Origin: a virus
Strand: one strand, 5' to 3'
DNA length: 64,000 nt
Virus record (IMG/VR): IMGVR_UViG_3300042874_000422
Span: 13,540 to 77,539 of that record
The position numbers were made by a program, and so were the translations under genes. Every line of letters begins with the position of its first letter. Within the stretch, counting starts at the first letter, position 1. Below are positions 1,975 through 43,131 of this stretch, in pieces. The notes below the pieces were generated by a model. The model worked only from the letters and a program-made list of their open reading frames with translations, did not search any database and was not told the origin of the DNA.

Positions 1975-2919
1975 TCACGGCATCACCAGCTTCGAGAGCC
2001 AGCCCGGCGTCGAGCGGCGCGCCTCTTCGCCGAGGCGCGCTGGATCGATATACACGCCCATGCCGGCGAGCCCTGGCAGGTTCGCCATCTTGTGACCGGT
2101 GATCGCGGCGATCTGGTAGGGCGTCAACCCCGCGACCATCCGCCACGTCACGAACGTGTTGCGGAAGATGTGCGGGTGCATGTGCTCCAGCCCGCACTTC
2201 TCGGCACGACGCTCGACGATCTTGTAGATCGACACGAGCGAGAGCCCCTCGCCGACGTTGTAGTCGAGCCGCCCCGTGCCGCGCGCGATCTTGCGATGCA
2301 GCGATCGGAACACCGAGCCGGTGGTGACCTTCTGCTTGCGCAGCCAGGCTCGCCATGGCGCGAGCGCGGCGACGGCGGTGTCGGAGAGCGGAACCGGGTA
2401 GAGCGTGTCGCCCGAGCCCTTGATCGGGACGGGCGCGACAGGGTAACCTTCTCGGGCGTTCTTGATCGTTTCGAGGGTCATGCCTTGGAGCGACATCCGA
2501 CGCATGCCGGTCTCTAGGCCGACGACGAACATCGCCCGATCGCGCAGGTCGATCGGCGAGCCGGCGGCACAGGTCGCGAGCAGCGTGATGGCTTCGTCGT
2601 GGGTCAGGGCGCGGCGCGGCGCTTTGTCGTCGTCGGGCGCAGTCTGCACGACGGCGAAGTGAAGCTCGGGCTGGTTCTCCTTCTTCGCCCACCACGAGCT
2701 GGCGTGCGCGAGCGCCGCCATGATGCGGTTCGCGCTCTGCGGCTTCATGCGCTCCAGCAAGTGGTTGTAGAATTCCTGGGCTCGGTAGCGCGTCCACCCC
2801 GCTGGGTTCGTGCCGGCGAAGTCGATCCACAGGTCGATGTCGCGCAGGTAGTCGGTGCGGGTCTTCTTCGACAGCCGCAAGCTCGTCTTGACGATCTGGT
2901 GCAGGATGGTGTCGGCCAT
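1975..2919 (-). CDS. tyrosine recombinase/integrase (XerC-like)
   Basis: Catalytic motifs TGMRR (R), IKG (K), HPHIFR (HxxR), TGH, GVY (Y); N-terminal SAM-like region. Confidence 0.9.
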   Translation of the reverse strand: MADTILHQIVKTSLRLSKKTRTDYLRDIDLWIDFAGTNPAGWTRYRAQEFYNHLLERMKPQSANRIMAALAHASSWWAKKENQPELHFAVVQTAPDDDKAPRRALTHDEAITLLATCAAGSPIDLRDRAMFVVGLETGMRRMSLQGMTLETIKNAREGYPVAPVPIKGSGDTLYPVPLSDTAVAALAPWRAWLRKQKVTTGSVFRSLHRKIARGTGRLDYNVGEGLSLVSIYKIVERRAEKCGLEHMHPHIFRNTFVTWRMVAGLTPYQIAAITGHKMANLPGLAGMGVYIDPARLGEEARRSTPGWLSKLVMP

Positions 2920-2923
2920 GGGG

Positions 2924-3463
2924 CTACTTCCCTTTGGGGGAATCATCTTTCTCGATCGTTTTCTTGAGCAGCCACTGCGCGGCTGTGTGGAAGATGACGA
3001 TCCCCTCGGGCTTCATGAAGCCCGGTGCGGCGACGCTTCCACCTTCTTTGAGCTTGTTGATGATGTCGCTCGCGTTGAGCTGATCAAATGGGCCTTGCCA
3101 CAAGATCGGTACGACACCGCAGCACGCGGGCCGTGTTGTCGCATCTGACCAACGATGCGTGTTGAACAGCGAGAAGCGCTTCTCTTTGAGATCGTATCGG
3201 CGCTGAATGCCGGTGCCCCACCACTCACCGAAGTGGCTACCAGGCCCGAGCTTGAGCAGCTCCTCCTTGTGCTCGGCGACCCATCGAGCAAAGCCAAAGT
3301 TGTCGCCATCGGGTCCGATCCATTGTGATCGCGAGCCCGCGAACACTTCGGTCATCGTGTCATTGACGTAGACCTGGCCGTTGGTGCCGTCGATCTTCTC
3401 GGTGACGACGACCTCGCGCGAGTAGCGCGCGATCTTGGGAAATTCAACGAATGGTGGAAGCAT
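2924..3463 (-). CDS. RNA ligase (Rnl2-like adenylyltransferase domain)
   Basis: FPKI, motif I TEKIDGTN, GEWWG.GIQ, EGIVI. Confidence 0.85.
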   Translation of the reverse strand: MLPPFVEFPKIARYSREVVVTEKIDGTNGQVYVNDTMTEVFAGSRSQWIGPDGDNFGFARWVAEHKEELLKLGPGSHFGEWWGTGIQRRYDLKEKRFSLFNTHRWSDATTRPACCGVVPILWQGPFDQLNASDIINKLKEGGSVAAPGFMKPEGIVIFHTAAQWLLKKTIEKDDSPKGK

Positions 3464-41451: not shown

Positions 41452-41481
41452 AACGAAAAGCCGCCCACGTTGGGCGGCTTT
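41452..41481 (-). terminator. intrinsic terminator after the capsid gene
   Basis: AAAGCCGCCCA-ACG-TGGGCGGCTTTTCGTTT. Confidence 0.8.
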
Positions 41482-41520: not shown

Positions 41521-42231
41521 TTAGACAACGCTCCTCTTGATGAGGCCGTAGAGGTACGTCTTGACGTCCGCGAACGTCAGAGCCGCACCGTTGTCAGCAG
41601 CCGCCTGGCTGATGACGATCGGCGCCTCGGGCTGGAACGACATCTTGAAGCCGAGGTTCTCGCGGAGGTCGATCGGCAGGACCATCGCGTTGCGATCACG
41701 GGGCGACGGGACGCCGTTCTGCGCCAGCTCGAATGAGCTGGTCGTGGCGAACACGTAGTAGCCGTGACCCTGCGGGTAGTCCTGCATCACGCCGTACGTG
41801 TAGACCTTCCCGTTGTACGAGAATTCCAGGTACGTCACGCGATCGAACTGGAACAGCGTGTTGAGGATCGGCGGGGCCGAGAGCGCGCCCGAGCCGTCCG
41901 CGAGGACAGGCTGCGTCGGGTTCGCCGTCGGGCCGCGCATGACGCGGACCATCTTCACGCCGATGCCGTACACGTACATCTCCCACGACTGCGGCAGACC
42001 GGAGTCGCCGTTACGGGGGACGTTGGTGTCGACGCGCGTCGAGGCGCGCGTGCCGCCCGGGATGGGCTGCGAGCGGCCAGCCGTGAACGCCTCGACCGGC
42101 GAGGTCTGGGTGTTCGTGATCTGGACGGTGCTGTAGAGCTTGTCGTCGATCCAGTCGCTGATCGCGACCGTCTGCCCGTTGGGCAGGGTGAGGGTCGTGG
42201 TTCCGGGTGCTACGCCAACAGTTCCAGCCAT
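41521..42231 (-). CDS. candidate major capsid protein, single-jelly-roll type
   Basis: LYST, DTN.....LP....VYGI, NGVPSP.....LPI.L.....F...F, C-terminal VK.YL.GL..R.V; RBS AGGAG, own terminator, strongly biased codons. Fold inferred. Confidence 0.65.
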   Translation of the reverse strand: MAGTVGVAPGTTTLTLPNGQTVAISDWIDDKLYSTVQITNTQTSPVEAFTAGRSQPIPGGTRASTRVDTNVPRNGDSGLPQSWEMYVYGIGVKMVRVMRGPTANPTQPVLADGSGALSAPPILNTLFQFDRVTYLEFSYNGKVYTYGVMQDYPQGHGYYVFATTSSFELAQNGVPSPRDRNAMVLPIDLRENLGFKMSFQPEAPIVISQAAADNGAALTFADVKTYLYGLIKRSVV

Positions 42232-42317
42232 GTCACGTTCTCCTGAGAAGAGGGTCTAGGAAGCCCGAACGTCGGGGGACGTCCCCCTGGGTTCGGTAGG
42301 CCGCGAAACACGCGGCT

Positions 42318-42399
42318 TGGCCGGCTTAAACGGGGTCGAACCGTCTCCTCCCTCGGGCCTTGAACCTTCGGGTGCTCTCACCGGAGAGCTTGTCAGCCG
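42318..42399 (-). tRNA. tRNA-like element / pseudo-tRNA with aberrant anticodon arm (possible CAA)
   Basis: Acceptor CGGCTGA/TAAGCCG plus GCCA, D arm GCTC..GGT..GAGC, T arm GACGG-TTCGACC-CCGTT. Confidence 0.6.
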
Positions 42400-42438
42400 T
42401 CGACACGGGTTGCCCCGTGCGAGCGAGTTGTCAGGGAA

Positions 42439-43131
42439 CTAGCGGCTGCCGCCGAGCAAGGTCGCGCCGTACGCAGCCGACAGACCGTGGATCTGCGGAC
42501 CGCCGAGGAGCGAGACCTGGCTCGACCGCGAGCTGGGCTGGCCGAGCAAGCTCACGGGAGCCGAGCGACCGAGTGACGTACCGGCGAAGCCGGGACCCGC
42601 AACGCCCGGGATCGTGCCGACCGACTGCGGCTGTGGCGCGATCGACGGGATGCCAAGGCCATTCAGGTAATTCATCTTCGGGATGCCGAGACCGTTCAGG
42701 TACGTCCCATCAGCCTGACGACGCATACCGAGGCCGTTGAGCGCGTTCACCTGCGCGATACCGAGGCCGGCCATCGCGCCCGGCTCCTTCTCGACGGCGG
42801 TCTGCACGGCGGCACTCGCCACCGCGACCGGGAACAGGAGCTTCTCGATGTACGAGAGGCCCGCTGCGAGGAACGAACCAACGACGGAGCCGAGCGCCAT
42901 CGGGCGCGTCGAGCGCATCGCTGCGAGGAGACCGGAGGTGCCGAGGCCCGCGAGCAGGCCGTACAGCTCGCGGTTCTTCGCGTTCTTGCCGCCCTGGACG
43001 TGAGCGAGCGCCATCGACGTCACGCCTGCGACGCCACCGCCGATGAGCGTGCCGTAAAAGCTCAGCGGACCAGCGCTGAGACCGAGGCCGAGCAGGTTGA
43101 CTTCTCCGAGTAGCTTCGCGCGACGGGCCAT
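42439..43131 (-). CDS. major membrane protein candidate (3 TM) with LNGLG repeats
   Basis: Three hydrophobic helices; MAGLG and three LNGLG; directly upstream of the capsid gene. Confidence 0.65.
   Translation of the reverse strand: MARRAKLLGEVNLLGLGLSAGPLSFYGTLIGGGVAGVTSMALAHVQGGKNAKNRELYGLLAGLGTSGLLAAMRSTRPMALGSVVGSFLAAGLSYIEKLLFPVAVASAAVQTAVEKEPGAMAGLGIAQVNALNGLGMRRQADGTYLNGLGIPKMNYLNGLGIPSIAPQPQSVGTIPGVAGPGFAGTSLGRSAPVSLLGQPSSRSSQVSLLGGPQIHGLSAAYGATLLGGSR

What the first reader, a model, noticed from the sequence alone, without database searches (positions are those of the whole stretch)
42240..42438. tRNA-like element in a hairpin-dense region just upstream of the major capsid gene
Seen: the 82-nt minus-strand segment 42399-42318 has an acceptor stem, encoded CCA, a D arm and a canonical T loop. 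Its anticodon arm is extended with a 3x3 internal loop (CCC-GAA-GG-[TTCAAGG]-CC-CGA-GGG, possible anticodon CAA). Further hairpins flank it (CACGGG/CCCGTG, GCCGCG/CGCGGC, GGGGGACGTCCCCC within CCGAAC/GTTCGG). Inference: not a normal decoding tRNA. It could be an RNase P/Z processing signal for capsid mRNA, a highly expressed decoy for anticodon nucleases (the genome also encodes an RNA ligase), or an attP remnant.
Basis: partly seen in the sequence, partly recalled or inferred. Interest (0 to 1): 0.7.

Follow-up and report, generated by a model that had tools for sequence, protein, structure and literature searches.

The report
Non-decoding tRNA look-alike before capsid-candidate gene
An uncultured soil and cave phage carries, in the untranslated stretch before its probable capsid gene, a conserved tRNA-shaped RNA that cannot read codons and most likely tells the host's tRNA-trimming enzyme where to cut the long late message.

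Summary
Window 42399-42318 (minus strand) can be drawn as a cloverleaf: a 7-pair acceptor stem with one G.A mismatch, a D hairpin, a canonical T arm, G-CCA, and an over-long middle arm.

The standard tRNA tools miss it in the window. Rfam gives only a weak tRNA-Sec match (21.5 bits).

It is not chance. The same element sits at the same place in the closest relatives. A model built from two sequences recovers four more. Ten of 21 pairs show compensatory changes. The T loop, the GG in the D loop and R-CCA are kept, while the middle arm changes freely in length and "anticodon". It is therefore a tRNA-derived, non-decoding RNA module restricted to one clade.

Best reading (about 0.5, untested): a cut signal for host RNase P that separates the capsid-candidate message from the upstream message. 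Protective hairpins lie on both sides. The anticodon-nuclease decoy and attP readings are disfavoured.

Two further hairpins downstream (loops GUGUU and ACGW) are conserved far more widely in the family.

This scan has noted similar tRNA look-alikes before capsid genes in three other phage groups. Those are unchecked AI notes.

The capsid identity of the downstream gene remains unproven.

The parts
42439..43131 (-). Upstream ORF (230 aa, P0002), Gly/Leu-rich, ending ...YGATLLGGSR-TAG. Its stop codon is at 42441-42439.
   Evidence: ORF list and translation. Synteny and the C-terminal motif are conserved in relatives. No Pfam or PHROG match.
42404..42419 (-). Hairpin 0: CACGGG-GCAA-CCCGUG, ending 4 nt before the tRNA-like element. 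Candidate 3' protective stem for the upstream message.
   Evidence: Read from the sequence. Every TLS-bearing relative has a different stable hairpin ending 2-4 nt before the acceptor 5' strand.
42318..42399 (-). tRNA-like structure (TLS), 82 nt. Acceptor 5' strand 42399-42393; D hairpin 42389-42374; variable middle arm 42372-42350; T arm 42345-42329 (T loop UUCGACC 42340-42334); acceptor 3' strand 42328-42322; G-CCA 42321-42318.
   Evidence: Orthologs in L016, L018, L019, L020/L021, L022, L023, L024. CM hits. Covariation. Register test. Single copy in the genome.
42300..42316 (-). Hairpin A: GCCGCG-UGUUU-CGCGGC. It starts one nucleotide after the CCA.
   Evidence: Hairpins with a GUGUU-like loop and many different stems occur in 26 of 82 distinct leaders. 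A ~92%-identical bog-metagenome contig shows two compensatory double changes (G42313-C42303 and G42311-C42305, both to A-U).
42265..42296 (-). Hairpin B: CCGAAC-CCA-GGGGG-ACGU-CCCCC-GAC-GUUCGG. This is the most widely conserved element of the leader.
   Evidence: 32 distinct sequences share a 5-pair stem and an invariant ACG+A/U loop. The outer pair covaries: AU 14, GC 11, UA 2. The outer stem has a compensatory change C42291-G42270 to U-A. The motif is unique in the window. Only a weak Guanidine-II match, 17.4 bits against a cut-off of 32.
42238..42244 (-). Shine-Dalgarno AGGAGAA, 6 nt before the ATG at 42231.
   Evidence: AAGGAGA-type sites are conserved in relatives.
41521..42231 (-). Downstream ORF (236 aa, P0001), the capsid candidate. 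GC3 is 0.90 and it is beta-rich.
   Evidence: 472 homologs with E <= 1e-40, all unnamed. No Pfam or PHROG match. AF2 pLDDT 57.8. Foldseek gives nothing at E <= 0.001; the weak top rows are jelly-roll capsid proteins.
41457..41481 (-). Intrinsic-terminator-like hairpin with a T run, just after the capsid-candidate ORF.

Best explanation
Shown:
- The 82-nt segment is a member of a small, conserved family of tRNA-derived RNA structures.
- The family lies between the stop codon of the upstream gene and the two-hairpin leader of the capsid-candidate gene, in one clade of an uncultured phage family.
- The family keeps the upper half of a tRNA: a 7-pair acceptor stem stacked on a 5-pair T stem, a canonical UUCRANY T loop, a GG-bearing D loop, and purine-CCA.
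- It has lost any constraint on the anticodon arm, so it cannot decode.

Inferred:
- The element is transcribed as part of the late polycistronic message.
- Host RNase P cuts at the 5' end of the acceptor stem, predicted between A42400 and C42399.
- This leaves the upstream message ending in hairpin 0.
- It frees a capsid-candidate message whose 5' end is buried in structure. That end is either the acceptor stem itself or, if a second cut follows the CCA, hairpin A, which starts one nucleotide later.
- The effect would be to uncouple the stability, and so the yield, of the highly expressed downstream gene from that of the upstream membrane-type gene.

The module is accessory. One clade member (L017) and most of the wider family do without it and keep only hairpins A and B.
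For: Conservation:
- Orthologous elements lie at the same place in L016, L018, L019, L020/L021, L022, L023 and L024.
- On a protein tree the bearers form a clade with 98/92 support, 6 of 7 rows.
- A covariance model built only from the window and L020 finds L022 (55.8 bits), L023 (30.9), L019 (28.6) and L018 (22.9), full length, at the coordinates chosen by eye. It finds nothing else convincing in 389 kb.
- On the resulting alignment 90.1% of cells pair, against 77.3% in shuffles (0 of 500 reach it). Ten of 21 pairs have double changes (0 of 500). Partners slid by 1-3 columns pair at only 41-49%.
- The tRNA register of the acceptor stem is the best of 12 registers in all six sequences, with 5-7 of 7 pairs. 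Cognate strands beat all 119 other pairings of five independent stems.
- GGUUC.A..CC and C.AA at the 3' end are invariant, and every D loop holds GG.
- R-CCA is present in 6 of 8 elements and R-CGA in the other 2.
- A ~92%-identical contig has only 4 substitutions and no indel in the 82 nt, while the spacer after the stop codon is full of indels.

Fit to RNase P:
- The enzyme recognises the T stem-loop, the 12-pair acceptor/T stack and 3' R-CCA. It also cuts tRNA-like and polycistronic mRNA substrates (PMC11143913).
- tRNA-like t-elements mark mRNA ends in plant mitochondria (PMC1920247).

Context:
- No sigma-70-like promoter lies in the spacer.
- No copy of the genome's GTCNGAC-N8-TA motif lies between 42232 and 52030 on this strand.
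- A strong ribosome-binding site and the gene's own terminator are present.
- Hairpin 0 ends 2-4 nt before the element, and hairpin A starts 1 nt after the CCA, in the bearers.
Against: - No RNA data exist. No listed sequencing run is on record as RNA, so transcription, cleavage and ends are all inferred.
- The window's copy alone folds no better than shuffles (z = -0.43).
- Its own minimum-energy fold uses a register shifted by 4 that pairs into the CCA. In the 210-nt context the cloverleaf is not the minimum-energy fold.
- Only 6 full-length and 2 partial sequences support the covariation. The alignment was fitted to the model's structure.
- A looser test, the best complement anywhere in the 5' region, shows no cognate advantage (p about 0.18).
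- The sixth and seventh acceptor pairs are often mismatched, and T-stem pair 50-64 is often broken.
- L017 and most relatives lack the element, so it is dispensable.
- CCA is known to hinder RNase Z, so a cut after the CCA has no obvious enzyme (own knowledge).
- The host and its RNase P type are unknown.
Confidence: 0.5

Rival explanations
1. Relic of a once-functional phage tRNA gene that is decaying and has no present function. Its shape persists only because the relatives are close.
For: - ARAGORN calls the L019 copy tRNA-Leu(tag) and the L020 copy tRNA-Met(cat).
- Rfam tRNA scores L022 at 32.3 bits (cut-off 29) and L019 at 25.2.
- The element is lost in L017 and is absent from or replaced in most of the family.
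- The sample is small.
Against: - Stems differ completely between lineages yet stay complementary, with 10 of 21 pairs showing double changes.
- The T loop, the D-loop GG and R-CCA are invariant, while the adjacent intergenic sequence cannot be aligned.
- Against a 92% relative there are 4 substitutions and no indel in 82 nt, while the neighbouring spacer is indel-ridden.
Confidence: 0.15
2. A trans-acting tRNA mimic. Once released from the abundant late transcript it soaks up a host factor that binds the acceptor/T/CCA half of tRNA, for example a defence toxin acting on tRNA 3' ends. It may instead recruit a tRNA-binding enzyme.
For: - Only the upper half of the tRNA shape and R-CCA are conserved.
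- The position in a highly expressed leader would give high copy number.
- The genome carries an Rnl2-type RNA ligase domain at window 2993-3418, 57.3 bits, so RNA damage and repair is a theme.
Against: - No target is known and nothing here points to one.
- Two orthologs have CGA in place of CCA.
- The element is missing in close relatives with otherwise the same genes.
- An anticodon-nuclease decoy in particular is excluded by the variable middle arm.
Confidence: 0.1
3. A cis-acting structural block or protein-binding operator in the leader. It would work by translation control or as a barrier to nucleases, and would act without being cut. The tRNA shape would be incidental to its origin.
For: - It is one of several alternative structured modules at this slot. 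A sister clade has a different conserved hairpin with apex GAACGGAAGCCCCGU at the same place.
- Hairpins A and B show that the leader as a whole is under structural selection.
Against: Generic stability or blocking would not require an invariant T loop, a D-loop GG and R-CCA. An RNA with these features embedded in a transcript is expected to be an RNase P substrate (PMC11143913).
Confidence: 0.12
4. A working but unusual decoding tRNA.
For: - The cloverleaf has U33 and a purine at position 37 in the window copy (loop UUCAAGG, anticodon CAA).
- There are weak tool calls in two or three orthologs.
Against: - ARAGORN finds none in the window or the genome.
- RF00005 gives no match in the window.
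- The window's anticodon stem is 8 steps long with a 3x3 internal loop.
- Orthologs that share the same acceptor, D and T arms have different "anticodons" and loop sizes.
- The "Leu" copies lack the long variable arm of bacterial tRNA-Leu, and U8 and A14 are absent (own knowledge of tRNA identity, read).
- The 92% relative changes position 37 from G to U.
Confidence: 0.04
5. attP core or remnant: a copy of the 3' part of a host tRNA gene used for integration.
For: - The genome has a tyrosine integrase at window 1975-2946.
- The 3' half (T arm, acceptor 3' strand, CCA) is the best-formed part.
Against: - The 5' acceptor strand and D hairpin are present and covary with the 3' strand. An attP core does not need them.
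- The site lies between two co-directional late genes, about 40 kb from the integrase.
- The position relative to hairpins 0 and A is fixed to the nucleotide.
Confidence: 0.03

Closest known systems
t-elements of plant mitochondria (tRNA-like structures at mRNA ends; Forner et al. 2007, PMC1920247)
   Same: Non-decoding tRNA-shaped modules embedded in longer transcripts next to protein-coding genes. They are proposed as cut signals for RNase P and/or RNase Z that define mRNA 5' or 3' ends.
   Different: Those are in organelles and have mapped transcript ends. This one is in a double-stranded-DNA phage of an unknown bacterium, has an encoded CCA and flanking hairpins, and has no end mapping.
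Bacterial RNase P non-tRNA substrates: precursor of the C4 antisense RNA of phages P1/P7, his-operon and other polycistronic mRNAs, tmRNA precursor, TYMV tRNA-like structure (listed in PMC11143913)
   Same: RNase P recognises an acceptor/T-like stack plus R-CCA outside true tRNAs, and can change the fate of operon mRNAs.
   Different: None of those is a full four-arm cloverleaf sitting in front of a phage structural gene. No sequence relation was found: Rfam gave no match.
Canonical tRNA (Rfam RF00005) and phage-encoded tRNA genes
   Same: Acceptor stem, D hairpin with GG, T arm with UUCRANY, and R-CCA. It probably descends from a tRNA gene. One ortholog scores 32.3 bits.
   Different: No RF00005 match in the window. 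The middle arm is not an anticodon arm. U8 and A14 are absent. The D stem has 6 pairs with a 3-4-nt loop. Orthologs do not share an anticodon.
tRNA-Sec (Rfam RF01852)
   Same: It is the best Rfam match of the window copy (21.5 bits), driven by the 6-pair D stem with a 4-nt loop and by the T arm.
   Different: The score is below the cut-off of 47. There is no UCA anticodon in register and no long variable arm. The acceptor plus T stack is 12 pairs, not 13.
mascRNA from the MALAT1 transcript and the tRNA-like parts of gammaherpesvirus 68 TMER transcripts (own knowledge)
   Same: A tRNA mimic at a transcript boundary is used as a handle for tRNA-processing enzymes to make the end of a neighbouring RNA.
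   Different: Those use eukaryotic enzymes, and the mimic lies at the 3' end of a long non-coding RNA or ahead of microRNAs. They are unrelated in sequence.
Guanidine-II riboswitch, mini-ykkC (Rfam RF01068), compared with hairpins A and B only
   Same: Two GC-rich hairpins lie ahead of a ribosome-binding site. Hairpin B in most relatives reads GGGGACGACCCC, like the model's second hairpin.
   Different: Only one hairpin has an ACGN loop. The fourth loop base is U in the window and in about a third of relatives. Hairpin A has loop GUGUU. The score is 17.4 against a cut-off of 32.

Membership tests
Canonical decoding tRNA (RF00005) | Detected by tRNA finders or by the covariance model at the curated score | tested here: not met
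   ARAGORN finds 0 in the window and the genome. There is no RF00005 match in the window even at E <= 10 on 106-501 nt. Among orthologs, L022 scores 32.3 bits (just over 29), L019 scores 25.2, and ARAGORN calls L019 and L020.
Canonical decoding tRNA (RF00005) | 5-pair anticodon stem with a 7-nt loop, and an anticodon conserved among orthologs | tested here: not met
   The window has an 8-step stem with a 3x3 internal loop. Orthologs have 5-, 7- or 9-nt loops, a 39-nt insert, or no arm, and their "anticodons" differ: CAA, CAU, UAG.
Canonical decoding tRNA (RF00005) | Acceptor stem, T arm with UUCRANY loop, D loop with GG | tested here: met
tRNA-Sec (RF01852) | Score at the curated cut-off; UCA anticodon; long variable arm; 13-pair acceptor/T stack | tested here: not met
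   21.5 bits against 47. The variable region is 4 nt, the stack is 12 pairs, and no UCA lies in register.
RNase P substrate of the tRNA-like (t-element) kind | Coaxial acceptor/T stack of about 12 pairs, with a T loop and a single-stranded 3' R-CCA | tested here: met
   The stack is 7+5 pairs in five sequences, and about 6-7+6 in L024. R-CCA is present in 6 of 8. The recognition rules come from PMC11143913.
RNase P substrate of the tRNA-like (t-element) kind | Cleavage at the 5' end of the acceptor stem | not testable with these tools
   No RNA run holds the sequence. An in vitro assay or end mapping is needed.
Guanidine-II riboswitch (RF01068), for hairpins A and B | Two hairpins, each with an ACGR tetraloop | tested here: not met
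   Hairpin A has loop UGUUU or GUGUU. Hairpin B has loop ACGU in the window, and ACGA or ACGU in relatives. The score is 17.4 against 32 bits.
Bacterial Y RNA (YrlA) with a tRNA-like domain | A Ro60 (TROVE) gene nearby, and a match to the Rfam families | tested here: not met
   There is no TROVE domain in the genome and no Rfam match. The family is described in PMC4201824 (listed; not read in full).
attP core derived from a host tRNA gene | Only the part of the tRNA that is shared with attB, lying next to the integrase | tested here: not met
   A whole cloverleaf with a covarying 5' strand is present. The integrase is at window 1975-2946. Identity to a host tRNA could not be tested because the host is unknown.

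The most novel reading that the evidence does not exclude
The element is cut out of the abundant late transcript and accumulates as a free, CCA-ended "upper-half" tRNA mimic. This mimic acts in trans as a sponge for host defence enzymes that attack or modify the acceptor/CCA end of tRNAs. That would make it an RNA anti-defence factor hidden in a capsid-gene leader. The same trick may recur in the unrelated phages where this scan noted tRNA look-alikes before capsid genes.
Probability: 0.08. Interest if true: 0.8.

Novelty: new variant of a known kind. Interest (0 to 1): 0.5.

Why it matters
If RNase P cutting is confirmed, this would be a bacterial-virus counterpart of the "tRNA punctuation" used by mitochondria. 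A phage with no tRNA genes of its own would keep a non-decoding tRNA shape only to borrow the host's tRNA-trimming enzyme, and so set the boundary and stability of its most expressed message.

The element also defines an RNA family that no Rfam model detects at its curated score. It has a clear evolutionary pattern: the upper half is kept and the anticodon arm is free. It is easy to test in vitro.

Together with the widely conserved hairpins A and B, it gives a handle on late-gene control in a large, entirely uncharacterised phage family. That family has 472 homologs of the downstream protein, all unnamed.

Because this scan noted similar modules in three other phage groups, it may be a recurrent design. 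Those notes have not been checked.

Tried and rejected
- **Loose ARAGORN settings.** Relaxed thresholds and intron mode gave hundreds of calls across the genome, which is noise.
- **Phage database searches.** DNA and protein searches of the phage genome collection found nothing.
- **IMG/VR pattern scans.** Two DNA-pattern scans, for T loop + CCAAG + GUGUU and T loop + GUGUU + GGGGACG, returned only unrelated true tRNAs or coding sequence. None lay next to a P0001 homolog.
- **Sequencing runs.** No RNA holder is listed. The best holder is the probable source, a cave metagenome. Only contigs could be laid.
- **Sliding "best complement anywhere" test** of the acceptor strands: no cognate advantage. 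It was replaced by fixed-register and model-based tests.
- **MAFFT alignments.** They placed gaps inside the acceptor stem. Model R2, built from two well-aligned sequences, was used instead.
- **Structure of the downstream protein.** The model has low confidence and Foldseek found nothing significant.
- **True tRNAs at this slot in relatives.** ARAGORN found none there in 60 further related loci.
- **Guanidine-II, Y RNA, tmRNA, tRNA-Sec and attP readings.** All were considered and rejected (see membership tests).

Full report
**What the window is**

The window is bases 13540-77539 of a 77.5-kb virus record with direct terminal repeats. GC content is about 64%. The record encodes rIIA/rIIB-like proteins, a tyrosine integrase, an SNF2 helicase, a PD-(D/E)XK nuclease and an Rnl2-type RNA ligase domain. 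It has no tRNA gene.

The finding lies in a 207-nt spacer on the minus strand. The spacer runs from the stop codon of a 230-aa Gly/Leu-rich ORF (42439-43131) to a 236-aa ORF (41521-42231). That downstream ORF has a strong AGGAGAA ribosome-binding site, a GC3 of 0.90 and its own terminator.

**Checking the observation**

These are:
- an acceptor stem with 6 of 7 pairs (G6.A67 mismatched), followed by G-CCA;
- a D hairpin, GCUCUC-CGGU-GAGAGC;
- a middle arm, CCC-GAA-GG-[UUCAAGG]-CC-CGA-GGG;
- a T arm, GACGG-UUCGACC-CCGUU;
- three flanking hairpins.

Taken alone the case is weak:
- ARAGORN and Rfam at gathering thresholds find nothing.
- A 501-nt Rfam scan at E <= 10 shows no tRNA match.
- The 82-mer folds no better than shuffles (z = -0.43).
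- Its minimum-energy fold closes in a register shifted by four bases.
- Only when 106 nt are scanned does Rfam report tRNA-Sec at 21.5 bits (cut-off 47), E = 0.018. This match is driven by the 6-pair D stem with a 4-nt loop and by the T arm.

**Relatives decide the matter**

The downstream protein has 472 homologs with E <= 1e-40, all unnamed. I fetched 15 loci from IMG/VR, 78 from metagenomes and 3 from genome bins. Gene order is conserved, and the spacer varies from about 20 to more than 200 nt.

In eight distinct sequences a homologous element lies at the same place, with its T loop 107-123 nt before the start codon. These are the window, L016 (cut by the contig end), L018, L019, L020 (identical to L021), L022, L023 and L024.

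The stems differ between lineages but stay complementary:

| Sequence | Acceptor 5' strand | Acceptor 3' strand |
|---|---|---|
| window | CGGCU | AGCCG |
| L022 | GGGCA | UGCCC |
| L019 | GAGCAG | CUGCUC |
| L018 | GGACGGU | ACUGUCC |
| L024 | GGCGAG | CUCGCC |

T stems also covary: ACGG/CCGU, UUGG/CCAA and CGGG/CCCG.

A covariance model built from the window and L020 alone found L022, L023, L019 and L018, full length, at exactly the coordinates chosen by eye. It found nothing else convincing in 389 kb. The genome holds a single copy.

On the model-made alignment of six sequences:
- 90.1% of cells form standard pairs, against 77.3% in shuffles (0 of 500 reach it).
- Ten of 21 pairs carry changes on both sides (0 of 500).
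- Sliding the 3' partners by one to three columns drops pairing to 41-49%.

The tRNA register gives the most acceptor pairs of twelve registers in all six sequences. The +4 register favoured by the window's own energy minimum is good only in the window and L020. With five independent stems, the cognate pairing beats all 119 other assignments.

Caveats:
- The sample is small.
- The alignment leans towards the model.
- A looser sliding test was not significant.

A bog-metagenome contig about 92% identical adds an independent look. Inside the 82 nt it has four substitutions and no indel:
- the discriminator G changes to A;
- U66 changes to G, which breaks pair 7-66;
- the middle-loop G changes to U;
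- A26 changes to G.

In the same contig the spacer after the stop codon is full of insertions, and hairpins A and B carry three clean compensatory double changes.

**What is kept and what is free**

Invariant or nearly so:
- GGUUC.A..CC of the T arm;
- a GG in every D loop;
- a purine discriminator followed by CCA (six sequences) or CGA (two), then A;
- a 12-pair acceptor/T stack.

The middle arm is free:
- loop UUCAAGG on an 8-step stem in the window;
- ACAUG (or GACAUGC) in L020;
- GAUAA in L022;
- UGUAGCC in L019;
- CAAGU in L018;
- a 39-nt insert in L023;
- no arm in L024.

ARAGORN reads the L019 copy as tRNA-Leu(tag) and the L020 copy as tRNA-Met(cat). Rfam's tRNA model gives L022 32.3 bits, just over the cut-off of 29, and gives L019 25.2 bits. 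So the family very probably descends from a tRNA gene.

Orthologs with the same acceptor, D and T arms but different "anticodons" cannot be decoders. They also lack U8 and A14. The "Leu" copies lack the long variable arm of bacterial tRNA-Leu (own knowledge of tRNA identity rules).

**Distribution**

On a tree of the downstream protein the bearers form a clade with 98/92 support. Within it only L017 lacks the element: there hairpin A follows the stop codon directly. The reduced L024 form sits elsewhere, next to genomes that carry a different conserved hairpin (apex GAACGGAAGCCCCGU) at the same slot.

The window's middle arm resembles that hairpin. This hints at common descent of the two modules, but I did not test it. 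No relative carries a true tRNA at this slot.

**How it most likely works**

The conserved set matches what bacterial RNase P reads. That is the T stem-loop (with its D-loop partner), the 12-pair acceptor/T "ruler", and base pairing of 3' R-CCA with the enzyme's RNA. The enzyme is known to cut tRNA-like and operon mRNA substrates (PMC11143913). Plant mitochondria use tRNA-like t-elements in this way to make mRNA ends (PMC1920247).

The surroundings fit:
- Each bearer has a stable hairpin ending 2-4 nt before the acceptor 5' strand (GNRA-type loop in the window and L020). This would protect the 3' end of the upstream message after the cut.
- Hairpin A starts exactly one nucleotide after the CCA. 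The downstream message would therefore begin either with the paired acceptor stem or, after a second cut, with a 5' hairpin.
- I found no promoter-like site in the spacer, so co-transcription with the upstream gene is likely but not shown.

I put the whole processing reading at about 0.5. That the structure is real, conserved and non-decoding I put near 0.9.

**Rivals**

In order of weight:
- a decaying tRNA relic;
- a cis-acting block or operator;
- a released tRNA mimic acting in trans;
- a working odd tRNA;
- an attP core.

The anticodon-nuclease decoy fails on the variable middle arm. The attP reading fails on the covarying 5' strand and the location.

**The rest of the hairpin-dense region**

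Hairpins A and B are the broadly conserved part of the leader.
- Hairpin A has a 6-7-pair stem and a GUGUU-like loop. It occurs in 26 of 82 distinct leaders with at least nine different stems.
- Hairpin B occurs in 32 distinct sequences, usually 50-80 nt before the start codon. Its loop is an invariant ACG plus A or U, and its closing pairs covary. It is unique in the window.

Their weak likeness to the guanidine-II riboswitch (17.4 bits) fails that family's defining feature of two ACGR loops. Their function is open. An invariant tetraloop suggests a specific protein or RNA partner.

**The "major capsid gene"**

The downstream ORF has no Pfam or PHROG match and no match in the phage collection. 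The predicted model is poor (pLDDT 57.8). Foldseek finds nothing at E <= 0.001. The weak top rows are almost all jelly-roll capsid proteins. "Capsid candidate" is fair; "major capsid gene" is not shown.

**Novelty**

No Rfam family covers the element. I found no paper describing non-decoding tRNA look-alikes in phage capsid-gene leaders. A large computational survey mentions tRNA-like candidates in viruses only in general terms (PMC10690425).

This scan's own earlier notes describe similar modules before capsid genes in three other phage groups. They are unchecked AI notes and I did not test them. The principle, a tRNA-like cut signal, is known. The setting and the family are new.

Noticed in passing
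window 42265-42296 (-), and L001-L228 about 50-80 nt before the start codon: Hairpin B has an invariant ACG(A/U) tetraloop on a covarying GC-rich stem. It is conserved in 32 distinct leaders of the family, far more widely than the tRNA-like element. It resembles one half of a guanidine-II riboswitch but fails that family's definition. Its partner and function are unknown.
   Followed up: partly
window 42300-42316 (-), and 25 other distinct leaders: Hairpin A has a GUGUU-like loop and at least nine different complementary stems. Two compensatory double changes separate the window from a 92%-identical contig.
   Followed up: partly
L001:2860-2890, L025, L228, L010, L086 (upstream of hairpin A): A sister clade carries a different conserved hairpin at the slot where the tRNA-like element sits. 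Its apex is GAACGGAAGCCCCGU and its stem covaries. It is followed by a GG.G.TCGAAGG stretch that could be a decayed T arm. The window's middle arm resembles this hairpin.
   Followed up: no
window 1294(-), 13911(+), 20034(-), 51382(-): The T-loop-like word GGTTCRANNCC occurs 6 times in the window against 1.5 expected (0 of 100 shuffles reach 6). Two copies are in the tRNA-like element; the other four were not examined. The covariance models found no second element.
   Followed up: no
L229 (CP070815.1, 4.74-Mb Gemmatimonadota chromosome), L228 (Polyangiales bin), L227 (Actinomycetes bin): Relatives of the capsid-candidate gene lie in three bacterial genome records of different phyla. The Gemmatimonadota one is on a complete chromosome, which suggests an integrated relative and gives a host lead. 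The two bins may be mis-binned phage contigs.
   Followed up: no
window 2993-3418 (-): An Rnl2-type RNA ligase domain (PF09414, 57.3 bits) lies next to the tyrosine integrase gene.
   Followed up: partly
window 41521-42231 (-): The 236-aa capsid candidate belongs to a large family of 472 homologs with E <= 1e-40. None has a name or a Pfam domain. They come from soil, sediment, bog, cave and freshwater metagenomes.
   Followed up: partly
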